From Bugula neritina (Eukaryota > Animalia > Bryozoa), in assembly GCA_964035545.1 (NCBI GenBank), contig OZ037771.1:13205133-13269132 (forward strand): DNA of 64,000 nucleotides, read 5' to 3'. A program made the position numbers and the translations under genes. Below the pieces are notes generated by a model that saw only the letters and a program-made list of their open reading frames with translations, did not search any database and was not told the DNA's origin. Positions 3,001-31,700 of the stretch are shown piece by piece (the stretch's first letter is position 1; each line of letters starts with the position of its first letter).

Positions 3001-5110
3001 CATCGGGCAGCTGTCGGTAGAGGTGAAGGAAAACAAGGCTGTGCTGTCTGGAACTAACACACTTGCTGGAAGGTTGGTACCGTGTGCTCACCACCCATTA
3101 GATATGAATTTATTAGATCTTAGTCTACTTTTAAAGATGAGACACATCATCGGGAAATCCGAGTTTGGTCACATGATCAGCACAGTGTGTTATTGGTCGA
3201 TTTACCAGAGGTTTAGGGAACTGTACTTCTATGATCTAAATTTTTGTTAATAGAGTTAAACTACTTCCTATTTATAGTTTTCCTATAGGAGTGTCACATG
3301 TTTGGATTTGGATTAGTACAGGAGTTGTCTGCTCATCTGCAAACTAACTCAAGTTGTATAGTCAACTCTGGCACTTCCTGAAACTGTCTAACATACAGGA
3401 AATAATGATATTCAAACTTTACATAGAATATAGTTTAAAGGTTTTTCTGCATTATTATCACTGGTTGTATGTTTTTATACATATTCTGGTTTATAATATA
3501 TTGCAATACATTGCAGTCTATTGCAGCGTATTATAGATTTATAGTGTATTGTGATGTATTGCGATATATTGTAGTTGTTGCGGTGTATTGCAATATACTA
3601 CAATATAGTGTGGTAAATACTGTAGTATATTATAGTGTACTATAGTATATTTTGTTATATTTTAGTGTATTATAATACAGTGTTCCCTTCATATCTCACA
3701 AAATTCCATAAGTCAGGAAAAGGGCTTAGACCCCTGTTTTGTGACCTATGTATGTGTGTATAAGGACAAATTTCCGAATTTAACTGATGCGTGAGATAAA
3801 TTTGGTATTCTGCTACGTCATAAATTGACATAGTAGAATACCAAAACACTAAGATGTGTTTTAAGACCCACATCTTAGTGAGATATGGAGGGAGCACTGT
3901 ATATTGTATTATATTGTAGTATATTGTAGTGTATTGCAGTATATTATAGTGTATTGTAATGTGTTGAGGTGTATTGTAACATACCACAGTATCTTATAGT
4001 AAATATAATGAGTTGCTGTTTATTGCCAGCATTGCCTTCTTGGATCAGTGTGTCAGGAAATTCTACAAGGACACGGAGTGCTCTTTGGTGGAGGCTATTG
4101 AAGCCGCAACCCTACACCCTGCTAGACTTCTGAGTAAGTTCTTAGTCTAGCATTCAGTTTAATTATACTTATGAGAGAGGCTAAAGGTGTATTCTACTGT
4201 TATACTCATTTATTGTGTTAGTTATCCTCTCTTTATTTTTGTTATATAAACTAACTCATGCAAGTTTATAGTCATTATCCCTGTGAGAAAACCCCTGATG
4301 TAAAGGGTTTTTGTTAAATCGGGCCAAGGACTTGTTTAAATGAGGCACAGGAGCAATTATGACTGGATGCTCTTCCTAACATCACCAATGGCCCTTGTCC
4401 GGGTTCAAACCCATGACTTTGTGTTTACTAGGCAAATGCTCTAACCCCTTCAACTCCTTTGTTTATATTATAGATTATATCTAATATACATGTTCGTGTG
4501 TGTGTGTGTGCGCGTGTGTGTGTGCGTGCGTGTGTGTGCGCGTGTGTGTGTGTGCGCGCGTGGGGGTGTGGGTGGATGGGTGTGGGTGGGTGGGTGTGTC
4601 TTGTATTACAATGTCAAAATTCATTTTAATGCGAGTGAAATAGATCAATGAATCTTTTTGTGGTATACTATGTAAAGCTTTATTATGTTCTCTACTATAT
4701 TTAAGTAAGTTGTAATACATTATCATACAAGTTACGTTTAGCTCTGTCATGTATTAGTAATCTTCTACTATAAGAGTATCTAAATGTTACCCTTGAGTCT
4801 ATTTGCAATGTTCTGGCGGTTAGTTTTTATATGTTTCCTTCCAGTATTTACACTTTATATCATGCTAGATGCTGACCACAGGCTACTGTATAAGACCACA
4901 GGCTACTGTGGCCTTATACACGCTCACATACCCGTAGACTTTGTTCTACGCCGTACACTCTGTGTAGTGGTCATGTTATTCATTCCAGAGATACAAGATA
5001 GAAAGGGAACTTTAGACTTTGGTTCTGATGCAGATTTCGTAATACTTGATGATGAACTCAACATAGTGTCAACTTACATAGCTGGTGAATGTGTGTACAG
5101 GGGGGGATAA
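43..5110 (+). CDS. AMDHD2: N-acetylglucosamine-6-phosphate deacetylase (NagA/AMDHD2), 9 coding exons: 43-131, 613-736, 1028-1182, 1389-1681, 1952-2040, 2202-2346, 2943-3072, 4030-4133, 4989-5110
   Basis: Spliced translation gives family motifs [68 protein letters not shown] and [13 protein letters not shown]. Exon phases are consistent. Confidence 0.95.
227..441 (-). mobile_element. tRNA-derived SINE copy 1, in AMDHD2 intron 1
   Basis: Matches the ~210-bp family below. Flanked by a 16-bp TSD GTAATATTGCTATATA at 211-226 and 444-459. Confidence 0.85.
1745..1922. repeat. 21-bp intronic minisatellite (TAGTAGCAAGCACCTGCTACA)n
   Basis: About 8 tandem copies ending just before the acceptor at 1951. 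Confidence 0.9.
2347..2942 (+). repeat. 30-bp minisatellite (GTGTTATCTGCATATCTCCTCTACTACTAG)n forming the whole of AMDHD2 intron 6
   Basis: About 20 units from the donor GT at 2347 to the acceptor AG at 2941-2942. Confidence 0.95.
3678..3899. mobile_element. Tc1/mariner-type MITE (family A), inserted in a degenerate ~10-bp AT-rich repeat (~3495-3990)
   Basis: TIRs CAGTGTTCCCTTCATATCTCAC / GTGAGATATGGAGGGAGCACTG with TA on both sides; a second copy lies at 5143-5342. Confidence 0.85.
4254..4449 (-). mobile_element. tRNA-derived SINE copy 2 (head slightly truncated)
   Basis: Similarity to the other copies, e.g. GACTGGATGCTCTTCCTAACATCACCAATGG. Confidence 0.85.
4495..4598. repeat. (TG)n-type microsatellite
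   Basis: Visible TG/CG dinucleotide run. Confidence 0.9.
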
Positions 5111-9773: not shown

Positions 9774-11848
9774 TCATGAGAAAGCAACTCCAATAAGAAA
9801 TCCTCCAGCAAATCCTCCAGTAAGAGGCACATTTTGTACAACAAAGTCAATTATCTAAAACAGACACAGTGGCATTGAAAAAGGCAACTCCTAGTTAACC
9901 TGTTAAACTAATACAACAACTCCAAGACTTTGGAAATAAACACAACTTGTAAAAAACTCCGCAGGTTTATAGTAATTATCCTTGTGGGAAACCTTGATAG
10001 AAATTTTTTTAAAGCAGGCTAAGGACTTATTCAGATGTGACACAAGAGCCTTTATGACTGGATGCTCTTCCTAACATCACCAATGGCCTTTACTGGGGTT
10101 TGAACCCATGACCTCGTGTTTACTAAGCCAAACGTTGTAACCTCTAGACCACGGCTGCTCCCTACAACTGACCCACTTATGCATTTTATGAAATAAAAGA
10201 TAAACTTTGCGTAATAATTGCTGCATGACACTTTGACTAAGTTTAGTCCAAACAAGATGGCGCAAGTAAAAGTAAACACCTACAGATTTCTGGTCCAGAT
10301 CTGCGGCTCGAGAACGTCTGATAAACTCGGTGCCACGATGTCCAAGGTCTTTGTGTATTCTCTTCCAGTCTACCTTGACATAGCCATAGTAATGGGCCAG
10401 CTACAGAAGTAATGGTGTGTTATTATATACAGCAATGAAGCTGTTATGGCAAACAGCAGAGGAAAAGTAGACAAACAAATACCTGCATTCCCAGCAGAGC
10501 TGTACCAATACTGAATGCCGCGGTCTTCCCTATTTTCATCAGCAAATATCCCGATAAACTGTAAAATAATACAAGACTACAATTGCTGAGCAGATTGTAA
10601 GCAGAAAAAAATCATGTGAAGGCACAAATGCTGCCATTTTCTTAGACCTGTAAATTATCACAGCTATTTTTACAAAAATACTAGAACTAACTCAAATAGC
10701 AATCTCTTGACCTATGAACAGGAAGACCTTGACTTATACACATAAATATTAATCAAAGCCTTTATTGGAGCAGCAAGTAAACTTGAATATGTGAACCTAC
10801 CACCCAGCTACTCCGCCCGCAGCAGCTTGTCCCCCGGGAGTCTTTGGTGAAACTTTAGTGACATAGCTTAGAATACGATCACGTCTGCTTTCCTCTTCAT
10901 CACCACCTCCTGTGTAACGTGCTAACAAAGTCTGGGCGTCGTCCAGCAGGTCATCTAACTAACCACGGGCAAAACATATTTCTAATATCACAGCATGGTG
11001 AATCAAACAATGACTTGAATTGACATGCAGTGATCAAGTCTAAACTTAAGATTACAAAAAACTAATAAAACCGGTGGGTAGTAATTTAAACACAAATAGA
11101 ATAAAACTGAAGATCTAAGTCTAGCTGATTTGAAATTATCATTTACAATAAACACTGCCATTCAGCTAACCGCAGTTTTGACTTTTAAATAAATATCAGG
11201 CATCATTTCCAAGTAAACATAAATATTCAATAAAAATATTATGTGTTTATTTCACTTAATCTATTGCATAACTCCACTCTACTTAACTTTTTACACATAT
11301 TTTTCTCTTAGTTTACATGTAATTAATAGAAAAATAATTGGTCAATAAACACAATCATGATTCAAGATATGTGGCGTAAGTTTTACTATGCAAACTAATA
11401 ATCGACTACACAGTTTAAAAGACAAAAAAGTTGGGAGGTTCAAACCTAGAATGTTTCGTCCCATTGGCTGTCCTATCACACTTTGTCTTTGTTAACGTTT
11501 ATGTTTATTATCAATGACAAATACACAGTTTCAGGATATCATAATGATATCCTAAAACTCAAACTGAAACTGTGTAACGCACTAACTGCATTATCTATGT
11601 TTATGATTATTGTTAAAATTAGCTTGGCGTAATGATAATTTTACTATTACGATTAGTAATTATCATTATTTATTATTTACGATGAGGGTCAGTACGACTA
11701 CTATTACGACTATAAACAAAGCAATGGCTAATGGTAATGCTGCTGAAAATCAATCCAATTATTACAATTGCTATGTTGCGTGGCTAGATTTGCTTTTAAT
11801 GTTTTTATAACAATGCACAATGAATAATGAAGCACTTACTTTTGCCAT
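9774..11848 (-). CDS. FUNDC1: FUN14-domain mitochondrial outer-membrane protein (FUNDC1/FUNDC2-like); exons 11840-11848, ~10801-10958, ~10483-10558, ~10280-10401, 9774-~9854
   Basis: Spliced translation QAAAGGVAGWLSGYLLMKIGKTAAFSIGTALLGMQLAHYYGYVKVDWKRI...FVVQNVPLTGGFAGGFLIGVAFS* matches the FUN14 family pattern. Confidence 0.85.
9953..10162 (-). mobile_element. tRNA-derived SINE copy 3, in the last FUNDC intron
   Basis: Family match; the head reads CTAGACCACGGCTGCTCCC on the + strand. Confidence 0.85.
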
Positions 11849-14385: not shown

Positions 14386-14597
14386 GGGAGCAGCCGTGGT
14401 CTAGGGGTTAAAGCGTTTGCTTTGTGAACATGAAGTCACGGGTTCGAACCCCGACAAAGGCCATTGGTGATGTTAGGAAGAGCATCCAGTCATAATTGCT
14501 TCTGTGCCTCATCTAAACAAGTCCTTAGCTCGTTTAAACAAAAACCCTTTCCATCAGGGGTTTCTCACAGGGATAGTGACTATAAACTTGTGTGAGT
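14386..14597 (+). mobile_element. tRNA-derived SINE copy 4 (full length)
   Basis: A box TGGTCTAGGGG and B box GGTTCGAACCC. 19-bp TSD AGTATTGTATATATTGAAA at 14366-14384 and 14595-14613. Confidence 0.92.
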
Positions 14598-16257
14598 ATT
14601 GTATATATTGAAACACCAGCTGTTAATTTAATTATGTTCATTTAAAGTATATGTTGATTACTGTTGTTACACATATGTATAAATGTATAGGCTATATAAA
14701 TTTTATTACCACACTATACATATATTACGTCCCTGAGATAAAAACTACAGCTAGTAGTAATTTTAATATACATGTATATTTCCAGGGCCTCCTGATCTTT
14801 TGGGTGGAGTCTTGTTTATTTCCTATAATCACTCATGTATAGCAAAACATATTTTATGGAAATAAATTATAATTTTATATTAAATAACATACTAATTGAA
14901 ACTAATTTGCAACATAATTCTGAAAATATTTAGCATATAGCAGCATTGACTGTACTGCAGTGAAGTTTTCCCAGCTGCAAGTGAAAACTTTGAGACTGCT
15001 ATTAACATAATGAAGTTCCTTTTGCTGGTATTTTCTTGAACATCAAGCAAACAACTTAATGACAGTTTACCACAAACACAACAGCTGCAAATAACATGAA
15101 AATAATTTATACAACAGTAAATAAAACATTTTAGTTTTTACAAATTGTGCAAAAAATATTTGTGTTGCATCATAATAACACACATAGCTAATATCTCGTA
15201 CAATGTAAAACTAATATATGCAGATTAATTACACAAGGCTAATGTTTGTTTGAACTCACCAAATAGACAGGTTGATGCTTATTTGTTCTGGTTATTTGCT
15301 GACCCTTTAATTAGCATTCACTTTGTTTTATTACATCATAAAATCTAGTATTATCTAACTAATAACCCTCAAGCTTTACTACCTAAAAAAGGCATCTTCA
15401 AACTCCCGTGTGTAAATCTTTTTAATCAAGTGAAGTATGCAAGAGTTGTTGGTCAATAATTGATACTGATTGAATGGTTCAATGTGTTTCCTAGTCAGAG
15501 AGTAAAGAAGATAAGAAAAGAATTTAAATGCCTTCGGTAACTGTAGCCTGTACAATTATTTATATAAATAATTTTGCAGTTTTTTGCCCAGTTAAACATA
15601 GAGAAGATCTATCTTGCCCCATGGTGATGGGATATTTTTGCAGGGTGATGGCATTTAAGCACCTAAATTCTTTAATAATTATGTTTTTACATCACAATAA
15701 TATATTAGCTGATCTGCAAAACATTTCTTTCTGTCTTAACTGGCCTGATTTGCATATAGCAAATAACTTGTAGTCTATGGTTGTATTATAGACTAAAAAC
15801 TATTTAATGCTACCAGGTATTCATTCAGGTTATAAGTGACTACAACAGGCACATAGTGTATCTTTATAACATCCTACTGCAAGCATCTCAACTCTATATA
15901 ATTCTTGTAATTTATGTCAGGAAACCAACTCATTCACCGCCATGTCAATAAAAAACTTCAAGTATGTTATATAACAGCAGCTGCATGGGGCTGTGGTACA
16001 ACTGCACCATGCAGGGTATGTTCGCAGATGTGTAATTTTCACTTGTAATTTACAAACATTTGATATAGAAATTTAAAAAGTTAAACTCAAGACTCATAGA
16101 TTCAAGATATAAAATAAAACGTCATAAACTTTTACAACTCTTTTTAGAAGCATACATTTTGCATAATTGAGCTTGCAGAATAGTGTACTAGTTGTGGTGG
16201 TGAGAGATATTAGAGTTGGTACACACTCTTGATTGGCTGAGTGTTACACTGTCTATT

Positions 16258-17082: not shown

Positions 17083-18329
17083 ATGAGTTCAGAAACTAAC
17101 AACACCTCGCTGGCGTATAGTTCTGAAGAGAACACCAGCAAGTCAGTAGCTCAGATATTATCTCAACATGGTGGGTGGTCTAAACTCTCTTTTTATAACT
17201 TATAGTGAATTGTGTATAAAAGGCACCTGCAGGAACTTGCCAGGATCTCATTTTCTCTACATGAAACATAATACAGCTTTTATAAGTGTTTTGTAAAAGA
17301 AAATTCATAATAATTTTAAAGTTGAAGTTTGTCAATAGTCTCCAAATTATATTTTCAATAAATCACTGTGATAATGAAAAAATATTTTGAAAAATGTTTT
17401 TTATATTTACTTGTATTTAATACCCTATGTATATTTTATATTATTGATTGTGCCTACCATATTGGTTTTGGAATTTTAAAGGCTCATACCTGATAGGTTG
17501 CTCTGAATTAAAGCACTTCAGGTTCACCTTATGTATATTAAACAGTTATGTATAGTGTGGAGGGGGAGAAGAGGGCCTCAGTGTTTTCAGTTGTCAGCCT
17601 TTAATGCATTTTTGACAGCTCTAAGGCTCCATCATTTTGAATAACTTTTTTATACAACTTATGCTACCATAAGACTGAGAATTCACTCAAAGAAAATTGC
17701 TACGCATTTATATGATCATCACATATAGCTCCCTGTTATATAGCATACATCTAATGTGAATAATGAAATATGTGGGTAGATTGTATGTAGCTTTAAGAGC
17801 TTGTAGGGAGCAGCCGTGGTCTAGGGGTTAGAGCGTTTGCCTAGTCATGGGTTCGAGCCCTGACAAAGGCCAAGGGTGATGTTAAGAAAAGCTTCCAGTC
17901 ATAATTGCTCCTGTGCCCCATCTGAATAAGTCCTTAGCCTGATTTAACAAAAACTTCTTCCATCAGGGGTTCTCACAGGGATGGTGACTATAAACTTGCG
18001 TGAGTTTTTTAAAAGCTAGAATGAAATGGTTCAGGGCCTCAAGGTAGGCCCCTGATCAAATCTATTGAAATAGCATTTGTACCATGTGAGCTGCCTCAAT
18101 ACTTGTAGTACTCCGTGACTTATGGAACATCGTGTTCATAATATTTGGAGTGATTATAATCCTCATTCTGATTGGCTACACGGTGTACAGAAGAGCATCC
18201 TGCACATGTAGGAAGAAACTGTCACCTAAAGTCATGTATCAGGTTGGAGAGAGTGAAGCAGACGATGATAATGACGTCTGCTCAGCCAATGACATCAAAG
18301 TTGATTTCACAGTCTTACAGTGTAAGTAG
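17083..18329 (+). CDS. Small single-pass (type III-like) membrane protein, ~102 aa, exons 17083-17170 and 18109-18329
   Basis: In-frame phase-1 splice. N-terminal N-x-T/S sequons, TM segment IVFIIFGVIIILILIGYTVY, then RRASCTCRKK and an acidic tail. Confidence 0.65.
17806..18005 (+). mobile_element. tRNA-derived SINE copy 5
   Basis: Family match starting GGGAGCAGCCGTGGTCTAGGGG. Confidence 0.88.
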
Positions 18330-19318: not shown

Positions 19319-22300
19319 TGACTGATCAAATACGAAGGCAGAGCCATATGGAAGCACGGGAACCCGTTCCTTTAACTTCCATGCTTTATCATCAAACGTA
19401 TTTAAGAACTCAGCTAAAGGAGAAAGCTAAACCCAAGCTACCTAAAGGAAAGAAGACAAAAAGCCAATGCAAAGAATCAGTGAGTAATTTGTGTTTTTTA
19501 TAAGTTAAGGAATTCATGTTGTAAAAAAATCTTGTTATTATTATGTACTGCTTACCATATCATACTTGGGCCCAATGTTTCTGTATTAGGTATAAGGAGT
19601 GTATGCTATTATAGCTGTGCTAGAAAAACTAATTAGAGATATATGCTATTGTAGCTATACTAGCAATAAGGGATATATGCTATTGTAGCTATACTGGGAA
19701 CAAAGTATATGTGCTATTGTAGCTATGCTAGAAACAAGGGACATATACTATTGTCTCTGTTTGTATATATCAACTATAGTATTTTGCACAGTCAAAGAAT
19801 GTGGCTGTCACGAAACTTTCTGGTGAAACCCTGATATCCAGTACTACCGGGAACACTGAGTCGAATGCACCACCAGCAACAGGAGCAAACAACTCCAACC
19901 AAACTGCTGACGTATTCTTCAATAGAAAGATAAATGTAATAGCTTGTAGCTCAGAACCTCTGTATTATAGCTTGAACAACTACGGGCTACAGCAAACTAT
20001 GGGACTGTGTAAGCATACAACCCTTATTAATTGAAACAAAGTAAGATCAAAAGCTATATTGTCAACTTTCATTACTTTGATAGTTTCACAGCTAATGAAT
20101 TATTACTCATCTTTATAGTGAGAAGACAACTCTCGAAACTCAAATATGGTGATTTGATCAGACTAGTGCCATTGAGTAATTCATATATTGTAGTAATTTG
20201 TGCAATTACTGTGCGTGGGTTCCTAGCTTTGTAATTATAGTCTATTTATCCACATCAACAAAGTATTTAAGTGAGATTCACGAGGTTTATTTATTGCTAA
20301 GTATATAGAAAGATATAAAAAGTACGCAGACTTGAAACACTACATCTTTACTCGCTTAGTACGCTCTCTCTCTACTACTACTACTACTACTACACGCTGA
20401 GGGTTATCACATGACGCAGTCTGATTGGCTAAAGGGGCTTGGGGGACGCGCGTATTACGTACTCACTACACCGCCCCCCCCAGCAGAAAGCCCTACTTTC
20501 TGATAACACAGATACAGTTGATACTAAGACATAAACGTTACAAAACTATAAAACTGAGAGAGCGTATGGCACATAAAAGAAAGAACACGACTATGTACAG
20601 TAATAAAAAGTATATATATATATAAAAAAAATATATAACAGTAAAACACACGATGACACTGACGGGAGGCACTTGTGGTGAATAGTCTATGGTTAGAGAT
20701 GCATACTTGTAGGTTACTATAAGATTGTCACACTGAGGAATTGTTTGTTAGCACCGGGCATGAGAGGGGTTCGAGACGGGGGGGGGGGGGCACCACCTGC
20801 GGTACCATCACGGGTAGGGAGTTTAGGGATGTTGTTTTCAGGCGCTTCCTTTCATTCGGGCTACAGAGGCAGAGAGTGCCCGGAGTTCAGATGCGGCGGC
20901 AGAGATTCTCGGTGTCAGTCTTTGCACTTCTTTCTTTAGTTCTCGTATCCGCTCTTCTGCTTCTCCTAGGTTCCGGGCGGGGGCAGAGTGCCGGTTGGGG
21001 GACGAAGATGGCCAACGCCGTTTACGAGAAGGCCTTGGGGAGACGGGGGGAGAGGGACGCCATCGCTGTGGTACTTCGATGCGTCGTAGCACGACTCTGG
21101 GTATGGAGTCGGGGCGGGGCACTGTGCGTGCGGGGGGTGATGGACGGGGTACGTGTGGTCTCCTATATCCGGGTGGTTTAGGGCAGGGTCCCTGGGTGAT
21201 GGTCCTGGGTGTGGGGAATTCCTGACGCAGCCGTTCGTAGCGAGCCGGGTCTGATATGAACGGTCGGATGAGATCAAGGAATTGTGGAAAGGAGGGTTCG
21301 TCAACTTCGAAGAGGTGTCCAACATGGCATCCCATAGTCCGCTGGTGACGGAGGATGTAGTCCCTGTGGTAACTATATTCACCACAGGGACAAAAGGTGG
21401 TGAAATAATGTTGGGGAATGTGAACTCGGAGTCTTCGTGGTGTGGTGAAATGAAGCTGGCATAAACGGCAGGTGGTGCATTTGTCGTCGCCCTTGTGCTC
21501 TCGTATAAGTGCTTCTGTGTCTGGGGTAACCCAGCATGGCTGATGTAAGAGTGCCTCCGGAAGTGTAGTGGGAACGGGTTCCTCGTTCCAAGCCATTTCT
21601 AATGACGGCATGTCACCAGGAAGAGGAGAGAGAGCTGTATCTAAAAGAGCAGAATTACTGTTAGATCGAGTGTGATCTTTACACCATAATTCTGATGACA
21701 ACCGACTGTTACTAGTCTGGGAGTCATACATCTTTTTAGATAGAACTCGAGGGACTGAGTCGTGTCGTGTAGACTGACAGAGAGACATAGTGTCAAGCTC
21801 CAGATCTAGTAGATCGTCGGCCATCGTTATGTTCTCGTCGCCTTTCACGTAAGACTCAGTCCCCAGTAGTTGTGATTCAATCAAGGCGATTAAATCAGAA
21901 CTGACTGATGGTAGACTTGTTTCCATGAGTGGAAATGTTAGCTCAGAGCAAGCTTACCTGAGAACCCGGTATTTGTAATCATACTCAGCGTTCAAGCTTG
22001 GATGTCCGTGGATTGAGTTTGAATGCGTCTGCCCTTGACAACGTCAGCGTAGGAAAAGACTGGGCAGCGTGGTTGTTGCGCACGGCTGGAACTATTTGCC
22101 CCGGGCGTAGTAGTTTTGTTTACTACTCCGCCTTCGCAAAAGTTGAGATTTCCGTGGTGTTCACAACTCCCACGCTTTGTTGCCAGTCCTTCCGTACGGC
22201 GCCCAGCTGGACTTTCGTAACTGCCGTTTGTAACACGGTCACATACGAAGTCTTTCAGGTATGCTGGGGGTTGTCTAGTACGCTGTCCCCGTTCCAGGGG

Positions 22301-25300
22301 AGGTGACGTATTAGCTGGAGAGGGGGTTGTAGTTGTTGGTTGGGGCGGTGTACTCACTGGTGGGCTATTTTGCTCTACCTGTGGTGTTTCTGGCCCGTCG
22401 TTGATGATGGCATTTCCCTCTCCGCTGTTGTCTCCGGATGGAGCCCCTCCCACGGGGGGGTTTTGCACTTCCGGACGCGGATGCGGATCCGGAAGTGGTG
22501 GGGGTAGACTTGGTACTGGAGGCGGTGGGCGCACTTCCGTTGGTGGGAGTGGCGTTTCCTGTCTCACCAAGTCCTCCTCCCGCGGCACAACCACTTCGTA
22601 TTCTGGTCCGTGCCGTTGCCGCCCGCGCGTTGCTGTCTGCCTCCTGGGCTCCAACAACGGGGGGGGGCTGCTACTGCTGCTCCTGGGCTAGCCCAATACG
22701 GTTTCAAGCGGGCTTCATTCTGGACAGAGACCTGCCCAGATCGCTCCAACTTGTACGTATGATTGGGCATTGCCTCAACTACTACGTAGGGTCCCACAAA
22801 CTTAGGCTGGAGCTTAGCCGCTTGTCCTCGACGCCTACGGTAGTTGATCATCCACACCCAGTCTCCAGTTTGATAGAGGGGTGGTTCCTGAGAGTCCTCT
22901 TGCCGTACTTGCCACTGCTTTGCCCGCAGTATTTCGTGTGCGGCCCTCAGGTCCTCTATCAATTTACTGGCATACTCGTGGATGGTATAGTCTTGCTCTG
23001 GGATGTGGTATGTGAGGTGGTCAGGCACTCGCGTCTCTCGACCGAGCATCAGGAGGTTAGGGGTTTCCCCTGTACTGGTGTGTGGTGCACTACGGTAGGC
23101 CCGCATGACTTGCGGTAGTACCGTATCCCACTCCTCCTGACCCCGGCCAAGGAGCAGACTGCGCAGTGCATCGCCCAACATGCGGTTGTTGCGTTCTACC
23201 ACCCCGTTGCCCTGAGGATGGTACGGGGTGGTCCTGCTTTGATTTACTCCCCAGAGGCGGCAGAGGTCGCTCAACAGTTGGGACTGGAATTGAGCCCCCT
23301 GATCCGAATGTATTTGCTCGGGTAGTCCAAGATAGCAGAATACATTTTGGTCCAGCACCCTGGCCACCGTGGGGGCGGACACATTTGGAATAGCCAGGGC
23401 GTCCGCCCACCGAGTAAAGTGGTCGGTTAATACTAGGATCCAACTGTTTCCTCTGGGGGTGACGGGCATGGGTCCGACTAGGTCGATAGCTACCACCTGC
23501 CATGGCCTTCCAGCATATAGCCTACGCCGTCCCGCTTCGCCAGGGAGACGGCAATGCTTGCTGGCCTGGCAGATTTCGCATTGTTTGACTCTACGCCGTA
23601 CCTCCCGCTCCATGCCGGGCCAGTACCACCGGAGCTGTAACTTGGAGAGCACCCTGCTTACCCCGGCGTGGGCCTGTTTGTGGGTGTCCCATACTAACTC
23701 TCGGCGTATGGCGGCTGGGCAGATCACCCTCTTCCTTCCATACTGGCTGTTGTGAGCTGCCACTGTGATGGTCAGCAGACCATCTGGCCCGATCCGCAGC
23801 GAGTCCCAACGTTGACAGTACGACCGTAACTCGGTGCATCCCTGCAGCAGTTGTTCTTCACTGGGTTGTCGCCCCTCCTTTTTGGCACGATATACGTCGG
23901 CTACTACTCCGGGGAGGTCCTCCTGGAGTCTTCGTAGCTCCCTGACGTTATCAGCCAAGACAGGATTGGCACGGAGGCGTTGGATAGCCTCCGGGGGCGT
24001 AGTGGCCTTCTGTAGGAGTTGACCCTGGTCCCAGTCATACTCCGTTTCAGAGTGGTTCAATGCTCTCAACTCGGATTTTGGGGGACCTCCATCCCTCTTC
24101 TCGATGTTGAGGCATTGTTTGCACCCCTCGTCCGGTCGCCGGCTCAGTCCATCAGCATTGCCGTGTTTCTTACCGGGCCGATGCTCGATCCGGTAAGAGA
24201 ACTTGGCCAGGAGCCATCGGGCGACTTGACTGGACGGTTCTGCTCTCTTGCATAACCAAATCAAGGAGGCGTGGTCAGTCCGCAAGCGGAACTTCCTGCC
24301 GTATAGATAAGGTCTGAAATGCTTCACCGACTTGATTACTGCCAGCAGTTCCTTTCGGGTAGTGCAGTAATTTCGTTCAGTGGGCGAGAGAGACTTACTG
24401 TAATAGGCCACGACCACTTCGCGGCCCTCCTGCACCTGGGACAGCACAGCGCCGACATTTTGGTCGCTGGCGTCAGTATCGAGGATGTACTCCAGGGCAG
24501 GGTCTGGATAGGCTAAGATAGGGGCCTCTAGCAGGCGGCCCTTGAGGCAGTCGAACGCTCTCTGTTCGACGGGAGTCCACTGCCAGGTCACCCCTTTGCG
24601 GTGAGCCGGTTTAACGGCTGCGCTACCCCCGCAAAGTCTGGTATGTATTGTCTGTAATACCCTACCAGCCCCAGGAAAGCCTGTAGCCCGGTCAAATCCT
24701 GAGGGGTTACCCAATCTTCTATAGCTCGTACCTTTTCAGGATCCGTCGCCACACCGTGTCGGCCGACGACGTGCCCTAGGTACTTCACCTCTGGCTGCAA
24801 GAGAGCGCACTTGGAGGGTTTGAGCTTCAGATTGGCACCTCGGAGTCGATCGAAGACCTCCCGCAGACGGCTGACGTGTGTTTGAAAGTCTGGGGAGATC
24901 ACGATGACGTCGTCGAGGTATACCAGCAGTGTCTTCCAGTGGAGTCCACTGAGGACCTGTTCCATGAGCCTCTGGAACGTGGCGGGGGCGGAAGTTAGTC
25001 CAAAGGGGAGGACTTTCCACTTCCATAAGCCGTCCCGCGTGATGAACGCCGCCTTCTCCTGGGCGTCCGGGCTGAGAGGGACCTGCCAATAGCCGCTCAA
25101 CAAGTCTAGCGTACTGAAGTACTTGCTGCCGGCTAAGGCTTCCAGAGATTCGTCGATCCTGGGTAAGGGGTAGGCGTCCTGTATGGTCACGCTATTGAGC
25201 TTGCGATAATCCACACAGAACCGCCAACTGCCGTCTTTCTTTCGGACCAGGACGACCGGCGAGCTCCACGCACTATGTGCTGGCTCGATGAGGCCGCGGT

Positions 25301-28072
25301 CCAAAAGATCCCGGACTTGTTGGCTGACCTCCTTTTCCTTCTCGGGTCCCAGCCTCCTAGTGGGCTGGCGAATAGGGGTAGTCCCCGCAGCTAGCGGTAT
25401 CTCATGACGGACGGCCGTGGTCAGGCCGACGTCATGGTCCCCGCTGCTGAACACGTCGCTATAATCACGTAGCAACTGAGCCATGGTCTGGCATTCCACG
25501 TTGCCCGTGCAGCCGTCACACGCTGCCTGGTATAGCTCTTTGACGTGTGGTGGGACGGTCCCCCGCCTAACTGACGGGCTCTGTTGGGGACCTTCCGTCG
25601 CAGCTCCCAGCGACGGCCCTATATCCTCCTCCTGGATGGAGTAGAAGCGACCCAGCATGGATCCTGACGGCAATTGTACTGCTTCGGAGAAGGGGTTGAC
25701 ACACTGCACCAAGATCTCTCCTCGGTCAGTCAGCCGGTTAAGACTGCTGGCGAGTTGGATTCTTCTGTGCGCACCTTCGACAACCCCTAACCCCGAGAGT
25801 TGGCTATTGTTCACTCTGCAGTGAACGGTAGCCCGGGAGCGGCTGGGTATAGTACAGTTCCGTACTACCTGCACACCTTCCGCTAGGGGACGACCGAACT
25901 TGTCGACACAGGCGAGCTCCCTGCCGCCCATTAGCATGGCTGACTTGCTAAAGTCAATATGGCACCCGTGTCTCTTCAAGAACGGCATCCCCAGTATAGC
26001 ATCTTCTTCGAGTTGGCTGATGACGAAGGTTTCCTGAATGACCTGGTCGCGGACGCGCCCAGTCAGTTCTATGATACCGTAGAAAGGAATCCGCGACCCG
26101 TCAGCTAGGGTGCCCGGTTCCCCGGTATAGGGAGCTAAGGCTCCCCTCTCCCTAGAGGGGAGGGTGTCGAAGACCCGACGGCTGAGGAGATTAGTGGTAC
26201 ACCCGGAGTCTAACAGAAAGGTGACAGCTTTGCCAGCCACCTTCCCTGGCAAGAAGTAGCTGCCTCCGTGAGGTTGTACCCGTACTCCCCCAGCGTGCTC
26301 GGTCTCGGCCGAACGGGGCTGTGCCCGTTTGTTCCGCAGTTTGCGGGGCCGGTGAGAGTTTCCTTGCGGGGGGGGGTGTTTTGATCCTCCCCGATGCCCT
26401 GAGGGGCCTCGCTGGTCCGCTCCATTACTGGTAGCGGACCGAAGCGGTTGGTGAGAGGCAGAGAGAAGGGGTCTCGTGGTCGACCCGGCTGGCTGGTTCG
26501 GTGGGGTGTTTGCCATTGATGGGGGGCGGGCCGCTGGGCCCGTACGGGCTCCTGGCGACATCCACCCCGTTTTCCTCTCGGTTTGGGTCCGCGGAGCTCT
26601 GGAGGTCTCCGGGGAGGTTGTGGTTTCTGCTGCCGTTGGAATCGTGGGCCGCTTGAGCGGCGGTGTCCCTGGATGCCGCATTCCCAGCGTGGCATAGTGG
26701 GTCTGGGGGGTTTTGTTGCTGGTCTCTTATATCTCCTGGAGTGGTTGTATGTTATGGTCGCCATCAATTGTCCCAGTTTAGTCATCAAGCGGTCCATCTC
26801 CATCTCTAGAGGGGGGTTAGTGGTAGCGGCAGCTATTCGGACCGGGTGGTCTGACTCTCTAGAGGTCCGCGGAGCAGTCTCCTCCGTCTTGTAGAGCTGC
26901 TCGGCCTCAGCGTAGGCCTTGTTTTCTTGAATTGCGGCCTCTATCGTGGTTACCCCCTTGGCTTGTAACTGGTGGTGGAAGCCCAAAGTGTTGAGGGACT
27001 GTACAAAATCTTCGAATGTATAGCGCCGTCTGTGCGTTTCTGGCAGATCGCTATACGCGGTCCGTGCCAGTCTCTGCACCAGAGTGGCGTGATCAGGAAG
27101 CGGTGTACATGTCTTGCGGAGCAGTCCCTGCAGCTTGGACTTGGCGACGGCAACGGGTATGCCAAAACGGGCCCGTAGTGTAGCAATGATCCCGTTTACG
27201 CTAGACTTCCACCCGTACGGCTTGGCTTCTTCCGTCAGTGCCATTCGCAGTTTCGCAAGAGTTACTCTTGGCGGCCATCTTGTAATGGCTGCAACTTCAC
27301 GAAACTCTTGAATGAACTGTTCAACATCTTCAAGGCCCGTGAATACGGGAACCTCTAATGTATTCCTATGTGCCTCCTCTCCAGCTCTGAGAGGGCCTAT
27401 GATAATGTTTCGCTCACCTTCTTCCATTGAAGTTACTCTTTCGTCCATGATGTTCTAATACTTTCCCATTGTCTTTATATAGTAGCTAGTAATCCCACCG
27501 CTGCCACCACTGTAGTAATTTGTGCAATTACTGTGCGTGGGTTCCTAGCTTTGTAATTATAGTCTATTTATCCACATCAACAAAGTATTTAAGTGAGATT
27601 CACGAGGTTTATTTATTGCTAAGTATATAGAAAGATATAAAAAGTACGCAGACTTGAAACACTACATCTTTACTCGCTTAGTACGCTCTCTCTACTACTA
27701 CTACTACTACACGCTGAGGGTTATCACATGACGCAGTCTGATTGGCTAAAGGGGCTTGGGGGACGCGCGTATTACGTACTCACTACAATATTACAGATTG
27801 TAGAGATGAGATTTCTAGCTGAGGGCAGTGTGTTCTCTTAAATGTTATATGATTGACTTTTGATATATGATTTGAATAAGTTATTATAGGCATACTCAAA
27901 CTACAGTTTAACACCTGCCTGCCTTACTTGTTAACACTTGTCATGAGATAAACATTCACTGTCACTGTTATCAACTAATATTCTAGATTCTTCCAGCAGT
28001 CACGACCCTTCTCGGCCAACTGGACAGTACTACATGCCCACAAGTGCTGAGGATATTGCTCCGATTGGCTAA
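19319..28072 (+). CDS. Possible uncharacterised spliced gene (candidate exons ~19319-19479, ~19792-19911, ~19949-20007, ~20119-20148, ~27997-28072) with the LTR element in an intron
   Basis: Several AG/GT-bounded open segments on both sides of the LTR element. The model is not fully resolved. Confidence 0.3.
20189..20470 (-). repeat. 3' LTR (282 bp)
   Basis: TGTAGT...ACTACA; by eye identical to the 5' LTR except for one extra CT and one extra CTA microsatellite unit. Confidence 0.97.
20471..20481 (-). promoter_or_regulatory. Polypurine tract
   Basis: GGGGGGGGCGG on the minus strand immediately before the 3' LTR. Confidence 0.75.
20838..21926 (-). CDS. Retrotransposon ORF3: 362-aa C2H2 zinc-finger, Arg/Pro-rich, C-terminal coiled-coil protein (not Env)
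   Basis: [21 protein letters not shown] is a canonical C-x2-C-x3-F-x5-L-x2-H-x3-H finger; a variant finger CPC-x12-H follows. No signal peptide or TM segment is visible. Confidence 0.8.
   Translation of the reverse strand: METSLPSVSSDLIALIESQLLGTESYVKGDENITMADDLLDLELDTMSLCQSTRHDSVPRVLSKKMYDSQTSNSRLSSELWCKDHTRSNSNSALLDTALSPLPGDMPSLEMAWNEEPVPTTLPEALLHQPCWVTPDTEALIREHKGDDKCTTCRLCQLHFTTPRRLRVHIPQHYFTTFCPCGEYSYHRDYILRHQRTMGCHVGHLFEVDEPSFPQFLDLIRPFISDPARYERLRQEFPTPRTITQGPCPKPPGYRRPHVPRPSPPARTVPRPDSIPRVVLRRIEVPQRWRPSPPVSPRPSRKRRWPSSSPNRHSAPARNLGEAEERIRELKKEVQRLTPRISAAASELRALSASVARMKGSA
21992..24590 (-). CDS. pol: pol C-terminal part: RNase H and integrase (HHCC, DDE, GPY/F), with the Pro-rich tail in a shifted frame after ~22660
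   Basis: [53 protein letters not shown] and KFVGPY. The tail contains [12 protein letters not shown]. Confidence 0.92.
24591..26376 (-). CDS. pol: pol N-terminal part: aspartic protease and reverse transcriptase
   Basis: [53 protein letters not shown] and YLDD. Confidence 0.95.
26210..27448 (-). CDS. gag: Gag-like ORF
   Basis: First ORF after the PBS. Capsid-like [16 protein letters not shown]...LRARFG, degenerate knuckle [15 protein letters not shown] and an LTNRFGPL motif. Confidence 0.8.
   Translation of the reverse strand: MDERVTSMEEGERNIIIGPLRAGEEAHRNTLEVPVFTGLEDVEQFIQEFREVAAITRWPPRVTLAKLRMALTEEAKPYGWKSSVNGIIATLRARFGIPVAVAKSKLQGLLRKTCTPLPDHATLVQRLARTAYSDLPETHRRRYTFEDFVQSLNTLGFHHQLQAKGVTTIEAAIQENKAYAEAEQLYKTEETAPRTSRESDHPVRIAAATTNPPLEMEMDRLMTKLGQLMATITYNHSRRYKRPATKPPRPTMPRWECGIQGHRRSSGPRFQRQQKPQPPRRPPELRGPKPRGKRGGCRQEPVRAQRPAPHQWQTPHRTSQPGRPRDPFSLPLTNRFGPLPVMERTSEAPQGIGEDQNTPPRKETLTGPANCGTNGHSPVRPRPSTLGEYGYNLTEAATSCQGRWLAKLSPFC
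27491..27509 (-). promoter_or_regulatory. Primer-binding site complementary to the tRNA-Leu 3' end
   Basis: Minus strand TGGTGGCAGCGGTGGGATT, 1 nt from the 5' LTR; complementary to ...AATCCCACCGCTGCCA-CCA of animal tRNA-Leu(AAG-type). Confidence 0.88.
27511..27787 (-). repeat. 5' LTR (277 bp)
   Basis: Direct repeat of 20189-20470; has CCAAT and AATAAA on the minus strand. Confidence 0.97.
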
Positions 28073-28783: not shown

Positions 28784-31700
28784 TTAGACATCATTGCTGG
28801 AACCAGGAGTTGCCAATGCCTGAAGTGTAGCTGCAAACCTTTCAAAGCTACGAATTTGAGTTCGGTTCCTGATGAGCAGGTACAGCAACCCCACCAGCAT
28901 CTGCAAACGGCACAAACTAAGACATCATTAATTTCTAGCAGTTGTTACAAAAGTTGTGATGTCAGAACAAAATACTGTCGCAAAGTTAATTACTCAACTG
29001 TGACTACTATACTTAGGTTGAGTAGTTAATAGTGAGCAGTATAAAATATACTGCTCACTATTGCTTAGTAATGATTGATATAGAGAAAGTTTAGTAAAGA
29101 AAGGGAGAACTTTTATTAGCCTAAGTTCTTTAATTTTCTTAATAAATTTTGTTGCGACACGAGTTGAAATTCTCACGAGAACCTACATACAGATGAATAC
29201 ATAGGGCTTTATAATTAACTCTTTGATAGAAAGTGGTCAAGACCTCTGAAGCTACTTACACAACCTAATGATCTTAAACTAAGGGGTCTAAAACTAAAAC
29301 AAACTCTAGTCTAGAGTCTAAAGTGAAGCCCCTGCTAAGAGAATGTGGTGGAAGACAACTTATGATTTTAGAATAATTTGCACATTTTCAAAGCTGCTTA
29401 AAAGACGGTATTTAACTTACAAGGACTAAGGGGCAGCCATGGTTTAGAGGTTAGAGCGTTTGCTTAGTAAACATAAATTTATGGGTTTGAACCCCAAAAA
29501 ATGTCATTGGTGATGTTAGGAAGAGCATCCAGTCATAATTATTGCTCCTGCGCCTTATCTGAATAAGTCCCTAGCCCGATTTAACAAAAAGCCCTTTTCA
29601 TCAGGGGTTTTCTCAGGAATAATGATTAGAAACTTGCGTGCGTTTTTTATCTAACATACAAGGGCTGTGATAGCTCCAAGGGTCAAGGTTAAAACGAAGA
29701 CCAGCACACAGGGTTCAACACTTTTAATTATGAGTTTTTCTTCTTCATGGTCGATGGATTCATTTGATGCTGCGGCAATACATCTCCCGTTTTCACACAT
29801 TTTGCCGTCTGCACACTTTGCGCCATTGGGCACACGGCCAGGATTATAGTCTGTGTCACCTGTGAGATGATGGAAAGCAGTTCATTATCAACATCAATCA
29901 AGTGGTTTGTCCAAAATAATTGTGTCAATCAGATGTTGGAATTAAACAAAAGTATAAGCATGCTACAACAACAAACATGCACACACACACGCACACACGC
30001 ACGCGCACACACACACACACACACACCTATATGGTGTTTTGAATTCTGTTACCAACACAGTGCTATTCTCTTTATTGTAGTAAACGAAAAATATACTTTA
30101 TATCAATTTGAGCTGATAATTTAGATAAAATTATGGCAACTAGTAAATAATCTCGCAAAGCTTACGTTTGAATTATATACTTGCACTCTGAATACATACT
30201 TGCACTCTGAATACATACTTACACTCTGAATATATTATACTTACCCACTGAATATATAATTACACACTGAATATATACTTACACACTGAATATATACTCA
30301 CACACTGAATATATACTTACACCCTGAATATATACTTACACCCTGAATATATACTTACACCCTGAATATATACTTACCCACTGAATATATACCTACACCC
30401 TGAATATGTACTTACACCCTGAATATATACTTACCCACTGAGTACATGCTTACACCCTGAATACATACACTCTGAATATATACTTACCCTCTGAATATAT
30501 ACTTACACCCTGAATATATACTTACACCCTGAATATATACTTGCACTCTGAATATATACTTACACTCTGAATATATTATACTTACCCACTAAATATATAA
30601 TTACACTCTGAGTATATACTTACACCCTGAATATATACTTACACCCTGAATATATACTTACACCCTGAATATATACTTACACCCTGAATATATACTTACA
30701 CCCTGAATATATACTTGCACCTTGAATATATACTTACCCACTGAATATATAATTACACACTGAATACATACACTCTGAATAGATCATTACACCCTGAATA
30801 TATACTTACCCACTGAATATATACTTGCACCTTGAATATATACTTACACTCTGAATATATACTTACACCCTGAATATATACTTACACCCTGAATATATAC
30901 TTGCACCCTGAATATATACTTACACCCTGAATATATACTTGCACCTTGAATATATACTTACCCACTGAATATATAATTACACACTGAATATATACTTACA
31001 CCCTGAATATATACACTCTGAATATATAATTACACACTGAATATATACTTACACCCTGAATATATACACTCTGAATATATACTTACACCCTGAATATATA
31101 CACTCTGAATATATACTTGCACCTTGAATATATACTTACCCACTGAATATATACTTGCACCTTGAATATATACTTACACTCTGAATATATACTTACACCC
31201 TGAATATATACTTACACCCTGAATATATACTTACCCACTGAATATATACTTACACCCTGAATATATACTTGCACCTTGAATATATACTTACCCACTGAAT
31301 ATATAATTACACACTGAATACATACACTCTGAATAGATCATTACACCCTGAATATATACTTACCCACTGAATATATACTTGCACCTTGAATATATACTTA
31401 CACTCTGAATATATACTTACACCCTGAATATATACTTACACCCTGAATATATACTTGCACCCTGAATATATACTTACACCCTGAATATATACTTGCACCT
31501 TGAATATATACTTACCCACTGAATATATAATTACACACTGAATATATACTTACACCCTGAATATATACACTCTGAATATATAATTACACACTGAATATAT
31601 ACTTACACCCTGAATATATACACTCTGAATATATACTTACACCCTGAATATATACACTCTGAATATATACTTGCACCTTGAATATATACTTACCCACTGA

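What the first reader, a model, noticed from the sequence alone, without database searches (positions are those of the whole stretch)
20838..21926. Young Gypsy element carries a transcription-factor-like C2H2 zinc-finger ORF3 where env would be
Seen: an intact 362-aa sense ORF between the pol tail and the PPT/3' LTR. It has an acidic N-terminal patch ([12 protein letters not shown]), a canonical C2H2 finger ([21 protein letters not shown]), a variant finger ([23 protein letters not shown]), an Arg/Pro/Ser-rich NLS-like stretch (RPSRKRR) and a C-terminal heptad coiled coil ([18 protein letters not shown]). No signal peptide or TM segment is visible, so it is not Env. Known: third ORFs of animal Ty3/Gypsy elements are usually env-like. 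Inference: this may be an element-encoded nucleic-acid-binding regulator, such as an LTR transactivator, anti-silencing factor or targeting factor, analogous to retroviral accessory genes. ORF3 is uninterrupted while gag-pol has three frame breaks.
Basis: partly seen in the sequence, partly recalled or inferred. Interest (0 to 1): 0.88.

Follow-up and report, generated by a model that had tools for sequence, protein, structure and literature searches.

The report
Retrotransposon's own double zinc-finger gene
A young Gypsy-type jumping gene carries, where an envelope gene would sit, an intact extra gene for a predicted two-zinc-finger protein shared with many diverged relatives, which likely binds DNA in the nucleus and would help switch the element on.

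Summary
Confirmed: a 362-aa ORF (20838-21926, minus) lies between pol and the PPT/3' LTR of a very young Ty3/Gypsy element, with no membrane segment. It is a family, not a one-off: 74 close and 224 profile-level homologues keep the zinc ligands, a W-x4-T helix, an E-V-D strand and Arg/Lys on both finger helices. The 125-aa core folds as one compact domain (pLDDT 96) with no clear solved match; finger 2 is C-x-C...H...C, not C2H2. A distant element (L067, 35% core identity) has it directly before PPT, LTR, the same PBS and gag; 11 of 241 homologues carry protease, integrase-tail or PPT-side sequence; bryozoan genes also hold it. In-phase splice sites suggest a spliced message (no RNA data). Function untested: DNA-binding activator/anti-silencer 0.35, integration tether 0.25, Rev/CERV-like RNA regulator 0.25. 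The gag-pol breaks lie in base runs and say nothing on selection. Non-env ORF3s are known; ten paper searches found no description of this family. An earlier scan finding (e1-7276517) may be the same family (not verified). Interest 0.62.

The parts
27511..27787 (-). 5' LTR (277 nt, TG...CA), with AATAAA at 27617
27492..27509 (-). primer-binding site; 18 nt identical to the PBS of L067; tRNA-Leu identity is recalled, not tested
26624..27451 (-). gag (29% identical to L067 gag); zinc knuckle near 26689 degenerate (no zf-CCHC hit, unlike L067)
27413..27420 (-). candidate splice donor 31 nt into gag (last exon base 27418, phase 1); predicted
21992..26726 (-). pol: protease, RT, RNase H, integrase (H2C2, DDE, SH3) and low-complexity tail, in pieces; frame changes near 26368-26376, 24590 and 22659-22667
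21952..21982 (-). upstream ATG (21982, pol-tail frame) and the element's best-scoring candidate splice donor (last exon base 21958, phase 1); predicted
20838..21926 (-). ORF3, 362 aa, intact
21627..21926 (-). ORF3 aa 1-100: acidic, mostly disordered, conserved in close and mid-distance relatives; also the most stably folding RNA stretch of this element (predicted)
21640..21667 (-). candidate branch point and splice acceptor (first exon base 21640, phase 1 in ORF3); predicted
21192..21566 (-). ORF3 aa 121-245: compact double zinc-finger domain (W132-x4-T137 helix, C2H2 finger, C-x-C/H/C finger, V208-D209 strand, two helices)
20985..21191 (-). ORF3 aa 246-314: basic Pro/Ser-rich linker (net +15) with NLS-like PSRKRR at 299
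20841..20984 (-). ORF3 aa 315-362: long C-terminal helix, coiled-coil-like; predicted
20471..20481 (-). polypurine tract
20189..20470 (-). 3' LTR (282 nt)

Best explanation
ORF3 is an accessory gene of a Ty3/Gypsy lineage that encodes a predicted double zinc-finger protein, likely made from a spliced message, which likely enters the nucleus, pairs up through its C-terminal helix and binds DNA, where its acidic N-terminus would activate the element or keep it from being silenced. Shown: the ORF, its place, its family, its conserved ligands and basic residues, and the same place in a distant element. Predicted: the fold, the splice sites, the coiled coil. Inferred: DNA as ligand, dimer, activation. 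That it is a functional nucleic-acid-binding accessory protein of some kind I put at about 0.85; this particular mechanism at 0.35.
For: Layout acidic N-terminus (net -12) / two fingers / basic NLS-like linker (net +15) / C-terminal helix is that of a dimeric activator (established knowledge). Among 45 domains under 55% identical to each other: C153 43, C156 43, H169 44, H173 43, C179 44, C181 44, H194 41; Arg/Lys at 164 (37), 165 (31), 167 (31), 188 (33), 193 (28), 196 (31); Asp/Glu at 189 (37); 164, 165, 189 and 193 are the helix positions +2, +3, +2 and +6 that touch bases in classical fingers (recalled rule). The nearest solved folds are DNA-bound tandem fingers (Kaiso Z 3.5, rmsd 2.8, 57 residues; profile hits HIC2 E 8e-7, SALL3 2e-5). 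Host flanks are CpG-poor (o/e 0.40 and 0.48) while the element is 0.81 and the LTR 1.05, so the element likely faces methylation. Element link: L067 and 11 of 241 homologues with protease, integrase-tail or PPT-side sequence.
Against: No binding, expression or localisation data; no RNA run was listed. Fold matches are weak (no Z of 5 or more among 48,161 chains; no Foldseek E under 0.001) and the inter-finger link is a beta-strand, not the classical linker. Finger residues stay conserved although the window and L067 LTRs share no more 7-9-mers than shuffles. An acidic-leucine patch was found in only 5 of 28 diverse members against 1.8 expected, with a pattern chosen afterwards. In-frame fusions to the integrase tail in relatives fit a tether at least as well.
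Confidence: 0.35

Rival explanations
1. Integration-targeting tether: the finger domain binds a chromatin or DNA feature and steers the integrase, either as an in-frame extension of Pol or as a separate partner, as chromodomains and the CopiaMBD domain are thought to do.
For: Integrase-tail sequence in the same ORF as the ORF3 part in P0137, P0202/P0232/P0233, P0226, P0148, P0176; the donor at 21958 is in phase between the pol-tail frame and ORF3; conserved recognition residues across unrelated LTRs suit a host target; precedent PMC6673714 (abstract and opening read); an unverified earlier finding (e1-7276517) reports such a fusion.
Against: Here a stop separates pol from ORF3, and most relatives that reach the N-terminus begin at or near the same Met (61 of 70 without a long extension); P0214/P0230 keep the domain after protease with no RT or integrase match; two searches for long fusions found none (weak, they also missed P0214).
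Confidence: 0.25
2. Rev/CERV-like RNA regulator: made from spliced RNA, it binds a structured stretch present only in unspliced genomic RNA (21641-21991) and licenses its export or holds back its splicing.
For: Donors ranked 1 and 2 of 410 and acceptor ranked 6 of 560, all phase 1 (chance 23, 44 and 34 of 2000 shuffles); the stretch upstream of the acceptor is the best-folding of 29 windows (z -6.1 and -7.4); NES-like M35-x3-L39-x2-L42-x-L44, NLS-like motif and SP/TP sites; CERV has a Cys finger, coiled coil, candidate NLS and NES and shares its start with Gag (PMC10309623, sections 9 and 15 read).
Against: Splicing is the usual route for any ORF3 (PMC5408684, passage), so it does not single out this role; the splice scores use rough recalled matrices and were picked after looking; L067 shows no strong gag donor and has 5 of 17 windows at z -5 or lower; the closing stem vanishes in a longer fold; 3 of 7 relatives with the upstream motif have Asp-Lys where the donor needs Gly-Lys; the fold is unlike the description of CERV.
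Confidence: 0.25
3. A captured host gene carried as a passenger, without a role for the element.
For: Annotated bryozoan genes hold the domain, some in two copies (Bugula KAF6040922.1, KAF6040923.1; Watersipora XP_067940963.1, XP_067940964.1, XP_067944745.1); only 15 of 87 close homologues are full length.
Against: Ligands are near-invariant across element-borne copies 25-35% identical; same place in a distant element; 9 of 11 listed substitutions in the C-terminal half of ORF3 are at third codon positions; partial proteins come from short contigs and dead copies.
Confidence: 0.05

Closest known systems
CERV of the C. elegans LTR retrotransposon Cer1 (PMC10309623; abstract, sections 9 and 15 read)
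   Same: Non-envelope nuclear accessory protein of a Ty3/Gypsy element with Cys-rich finger, coiled coil, candidate NLS and NES; spliced message sharing the gag start (only predicted here).
   Different: CERV is described as nematode-restricted, with H, M and G-protein-like domains and a C4 loop; ORF3 has a C2H2 plus C2HC double finger and no G-like domain. No sequence comparison was run.
Family-specific non-env ORF3s of bdelloid LTR retrotransposons (GDSL, DEDDy, coiled-coil, TM; PMC5408684, passages read)
   Same: Extra ORF between pol and the 3' LTR that is not Env.
   Different: Those are enzymes or membrane/coiled-coil proteins; 'zinc' does not occur in that paper.
Classical tandem C2H2 DNA-binding domains (Kaiso/ZBTB33, HIC2, SALL, ZBTB20)
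   Same: Finger 1 fits C-x2-C-x12-H-x3-H; the two-finger part aligns over about 50-57 residues at Z 3.2-3.5.
   Different: No TGEKP-like linker, C-x-C second finger closed by Cys, extra W-x4-T helix, E-V-D strand and C-terminal helices that make one compact domain; no match spans the domain.
Chromatin-reader add-ons of LTR elements: chromodomain of chromoviruses (mentioned in PMC12440569 passage) and CopiaMBD (PMC6673714, abstract and opening read)
   Same: Small reader-type domain added to an LTR element; in some relatives fused after the integrase tail.
   Different: Different domain; here a separate ORF with its own conserved start.
Uncharacterised bryozoan proteins (Bugula neritina EB796_000763/000764; Watersipora subatra XP_067940963.1, XP_067944745.1)
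   Same: Same domain and a C-terminal helix in several.
   Different: Annotated as host genes, often with two domain copies; their genomic context was not examined.

Membership tests
Ty3/Gypsy LTR retrotransposon (Metaviridae) | LTRs with TG...CA ends, target duplication, PBS, PPT | tested here: met
Ty3/Gypsy LTR retrotransposon (Metaviridae) | pol order PR-RT-RH-IN | tested here: met
   Pfam hits; motif places
Ty3/Gypsy LTR retrotransposon (Metaviridae) | RT phylogeny inside a named clade | not testable with these tools
   no Repbase or GyDB set held
Env-type ORF3 | signal peptide and transmembrane anchor | tested here: not met
   highest 19-residue hydropathy 0.93; no Env family in Pfam
Classical C2H2 (Kruppel-type) zinc-finger protein | C-x2-C-x12-H-x3-H finger | tested here: met
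   finger 1; ligands in 43-44 of 45 diverse domains; 21 of 68 members hit zf-C2H2_4 at E 0.1
Classical C2H2 (Kruppel-type) zinc-finger protein | tandem fingers joined by a TGEKP-like linker, second finger C2H2 | tested here: not met
   linker YFTTF forms a strand; finger 2 is C-x-C-x12-H-x5-C
Classical C2H2 (Kruppel-type) zinc-finger protein | sequence-specific DNA binding | not testable with these tools
   needs binding assays
Rev/CERV-like export factor | made from a spliced subgenomic RNA | tested here: inconclusive
   in-phase sites predicted; no RNA run
Rev/CERV-like export factor | structured response element in the intron | tested here: inconclusive
Rev/CERV-like export factor | homology to CERV M/G domains | not tested
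   CERV sequence not held; no G-protein-like fold among the listed matches
Integrase-fused targeting domain (chromovirus-like) | in frame with the integrase C-terminus | tested here: not met
   stop at 21992-21994 in this copy; met in some relatives

The most novel reading that the evidence does not exclude
A widespread lineage of invertebrate Gypsy elements encodes its own transcription-factor-like protein with a new compact double zinc-finger fold, used as a stand-alone regulator in some families, fused to integrase in others, and taken over as host genes in bryozoans: an LTR retrotransposon with a self-encoded activator or anti-silencer, like a complex retrovirus.
Probability: 0.3. Interest if true: 0.85.

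Novelty: new variant of a known kind. Interest (0 to 1): 0.62.

Why it matters
Accessory genes of LTR retrotransposons with a known job are few (Env, CERV, sORF2). A conserved zinc-finger accessory family gives a small, well-folded, testable protein for asking whether retrotransposons regulate their own transcription, export or targeting as complex retroviruses do, and whether such genes seed host zinc-finger genes. It also names a domain that Pfam does not cover.

Tried and rejected
No whole genome is held, so copies could not be collected and dN/dS was not computed; the look-up of contigs behind the protein hits is closed. Scans for close ORF3 relatives found none in viral contigs (4 stretches, 0 confirmed) or metagenome contigs (78 stretches, 0 confirmed); integrase patterns found none in viral contigs. 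The degenerate motif scan gave 8 viral and 84 metagenome loci; 1 of 92 (L067) held the domain, the rest are chance matches. No RNA holder was listed; this is no evidence on expression. Searches for long fusion proteins were blank (weak). The Atlas gave only weak C2H2-type leads at 0.90 or lower and was unavailable for the core. BFVD and PDB Foldseek gave nothing under E 0.001; whole-model VIA matched only the C-terminal helix. Rfam: one chance-level hit. The idea that aa 1-100 are mere intron was rejected: the Met-1 start and an LLD...VPYK motif persist in relatives down to P0175 (iE 7e-7). Codon-position counts on listed variants were uninformative for core (6 of 14 third), linker (7 of 19) and N-terminus (3 of 7), mostly one divergent contig and only 40 of 136 rows shown. 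Protein-level pairing tests of the RNA stems beat shuffles at 4 of 18 positions and are confounded by kinship; 5 of 6 listed paired variants keep a pair, 1 breaks it. One search compared overlapping alignments and is not used. The domain tree has many open branches and gives no direction between element and bryozoan genes.

Full report
Observation. The minus strand holds a Ty3/Gypsy element from 27787 to 20189. Its LTRs (277 and 282 nt) differ only in the length of a microsatellite and are flanked by a 4-bp ATAT duplication, so it inserted very recently; no other copy lies in the window. Pfam finds protease, RT, RNase H and integrase in Gypsy order. ORF3 runs 21926 to 20838, 362 aa, 65 nt after the pol-tail stop and 367 nt before the 3' LTR; 0 of 2000 shuffles give such an ORF. 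It has no hydrophobic segment and no Pfam hit at cut-off. The gag-pol frame changes lie at or beside base runs (26368-26376, about 24590, 22659-22667), and contigs of other copies differ in length at two of them. In an element with no LTR substitutions these look like slips or assembly errors (inference), so they are no evidence that ORF3 is kept while pol decays.

The family. A word-indexed search gave 74 homologues among 7048 candidates, 50-91% identical; a profile search of 1.84 billion representatives gave 224 at E 0.001 or better, 150 listed. Of 87 close homologues 15 are full length at 52-71% identity; the rest are partial or frameshifted, and short contigs cannot be told from dead copies. 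Reducing 159 domain hits to 45 under 55% identity leaves near-invariant W132, T137, C153, C156, H169, H173, F178, C179, C181, H194, V208, D209 and P238, and Arg/Lys at 164, 165, 167, 188, 193 and 196. The N-terminal 100 residues, though predicted disordered, keep their start and an LLD...VPYK motif in mid-distance relatives, so they are likely coding. Three coded runs of one study cover the element with thousands of diverged contigs (4206, 13717, 6407 laid), ORF3 included: a multi-copy family. In the 11 listed substitutions from the C-terminal half of ORF3, 9 are at third positions; the lists for core, linker and N-terminus show no such bias and are small, cut and mostly from one contig. dN/dS could not be computed.

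Link to the element. A degenerate motif scan returned 92 loci, of which one, L067 (CAJIBL010000229.1), holds the whole domain (87.5 bits), 35% identical over 97 columns. There the ORF ends just before a polypurine tract, a 719-nt LTR, the same 18-nt PBS as in the window, a gag with a zinc knuckle and a protease. RT and integrase are off that contig, so it shows 'last ORF before the LTR', not 'after pol'. At protein level 11 of 241 sequences carry other element parts: protease (P0214, P0230), integrase SH3 (P0158), integrase tail in the same frame (P0137, P0148, P0176, P0202, P0232, P0233, P0226), and read-through into the 3' UTR and PPT (P0076). For the other homologues no context is known. 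Of 20 distant clusters looked up, 4 include annotated bryozoan genes; whether these are elements, domesticated copies or the source is open, and the tree does not settle it. The host of the window is unknown; an invertebrate animal is my inference.

Structure. AlphaFold2 gives the whole protein pLDDT 69 with two ordered parts, about 121-240 and 315-361. The core alone, with 68 diverse sequences, reaches pLDDT 95.7 and pTM 0.87: helix, helix, finger 1, a strand that leads into finger 2, a further strand and two helices, packed as one domain. No solved chain matches it as a whole; the best rows are DNA-bound tandem fingers over about 50-57 residues (Kaiso Z 3.5), and Foldseek has nothing under E 0.001. 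This neither proves a new fold nor a function.

Expression. With rough recalled matrices the two best donors of 410 are at 21958 and at 27418 (31 nt into gag); an acceptor with a branch-point motif at 21640 ranks 6 of 560. All three are phase 1, so either donor would join in frame to ORF3 at residue 96, from the gag start or from an ATG at 21982. Each site arises in 1-2% of local shuffles, but I picked them after looking; L067 shows no strong gag donor, and 3 of 7 relatives with the upstream motif do not fit the 21958 donor. Residues 95-96 in relatives stay compatible with the acceptor. The stretch 21641-21991 folds better than all 100 shuffles (z -6.1) and best of 29 windows; its inner stems persist in longer folds, its closing stem does not, and L067 has 5 of 17 windows as strong. 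No RNA data exist here.

Mechanism. An acidic N-terminus, two fingers with conserved basic residues at base-contact positions, a basic NLS-like linker and a C-terminal helix make the layout of a dimeric DNA-binding activator; the host flanks are CpG-depleted while the LTR is not. I commit to that reading at 0.35. A tether for integrase (0.25) is favoured by the in-frame fusions and by conserved fingers over unrelated LTRs; a Rev/CERV-like RNA regulator (0.25) by the splice sites, the structured stretch and an NES-like motif. A passenger gene is unlikely (0.05). The dimer could not be tested.

What is known. CERV of Cer1 is a nuclear, spliced, non-envelope protein needed for genomic RNA export (PMC10309623; abstract, sections 9 and 15). 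Bdelloid elements carry GDSL, DEDDy, coiled-coil and TM ORF3s, typically from spliced messages (PMC5408684; passages). MDG1-group elements carry sORF1 and sORF2 (PMC11952523; passages). CopiaMBD is a captured methyl-CpG reader (PMC6673714; abstract and opening). Passages of PMC12440569, PMC6338049 and PMC6431247 mention no such zinc-finger ORF. Ten searches listed no paper on this family; the library lacks most subscription journals, Repbase and GyDB were not available, and supplements were not read, so an entry there is possible. The scan's earlier notes led me to CERV and the rotifer paper; e1-7276517 describes a two-finger module fused to a Gypsy integrase in another genome and may be this family, but sequence look-ups with P0001, P0202 and P0108 returned nothing.

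Verdict. Real, element-borne, conserved and apparently undescribed as a family: a new variant of a known kind (non-envelope accessory ORF3), interest 0.62. The boldest open reading, a self-encoded transcription regulator spread across a Gypsy lineage and taken over by hosts, has probability about 0.3 and would merit 0.85.

Noticed in passing
window 21641-21991: Dual-use stretch: conserved protein N-terminus that also folds as the element's most stable RNA (11-bp stem 21853-21863 with 21751-21761, 10-bp hairpin 21873-21897); 21626-21745 is the most deeply covered part of 21290-21995 in runs X2 and X3.
   Followed up: partly
window 21940-21994 and P0092, P0124, P0148, P0166, P0176, P0184, P0205: The short peptide read past the pol stop here resembles a 19-aa in-frame N-terminal extension of ORF3 in relatives, so the pol/ORF3 junction changes frame between subfamilies.
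   Followed up: partly
P0214, P0230: 1145-1208-aa proteins with a Gypsy protease, a long low-complexity stretch and the finger domain but no RT or integrase match: possibly a non-autonomous family that keeps ORF3.
   Followed up: no
L067 1-4530: Contig reads ORF3-like ORF (726 aa, 5'-open, with a 144-nt repeat), PPT, 719-nt LTR, PBS, gag, protease: either a collapsed assembly or tandem elements sharing an LTR; RT and integrase are off the contig.
   Followed up: yes
P0234, P0238 (Bugula), P0095, P0237, P0198 (Watersipora): Bryozoan annotated genes, two with adjacent locus tags, carry one or two copies of the domain; P0234, P0238 and P0198 share a further N-terminal segment by eye.
   Followed up: no
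window 27455-27469 and 26689: An ATG in frame with gag is followed by a stop before the next Met, and the gag zinc knuckle is degenerate, so this copy may be non-autonomous despite identical LTRs.
   Followed up: no
ORF3 residue 189: Acidic residue at helix position +2 of finger 2 in 37 of 45 domains; from recall, Kaiso reads methyl-CpG with an acidic residue at a like place. Untested.
   Followed up: no
window 221-440, 4289-4449, 9984-10144, 14386-14605, 17843-17977, 29442-29546, 56182-56342: A dispersed repeat of about 130-220 nt in both orientations, and many minisatellite arrays elsewhere.
   Followed up: no
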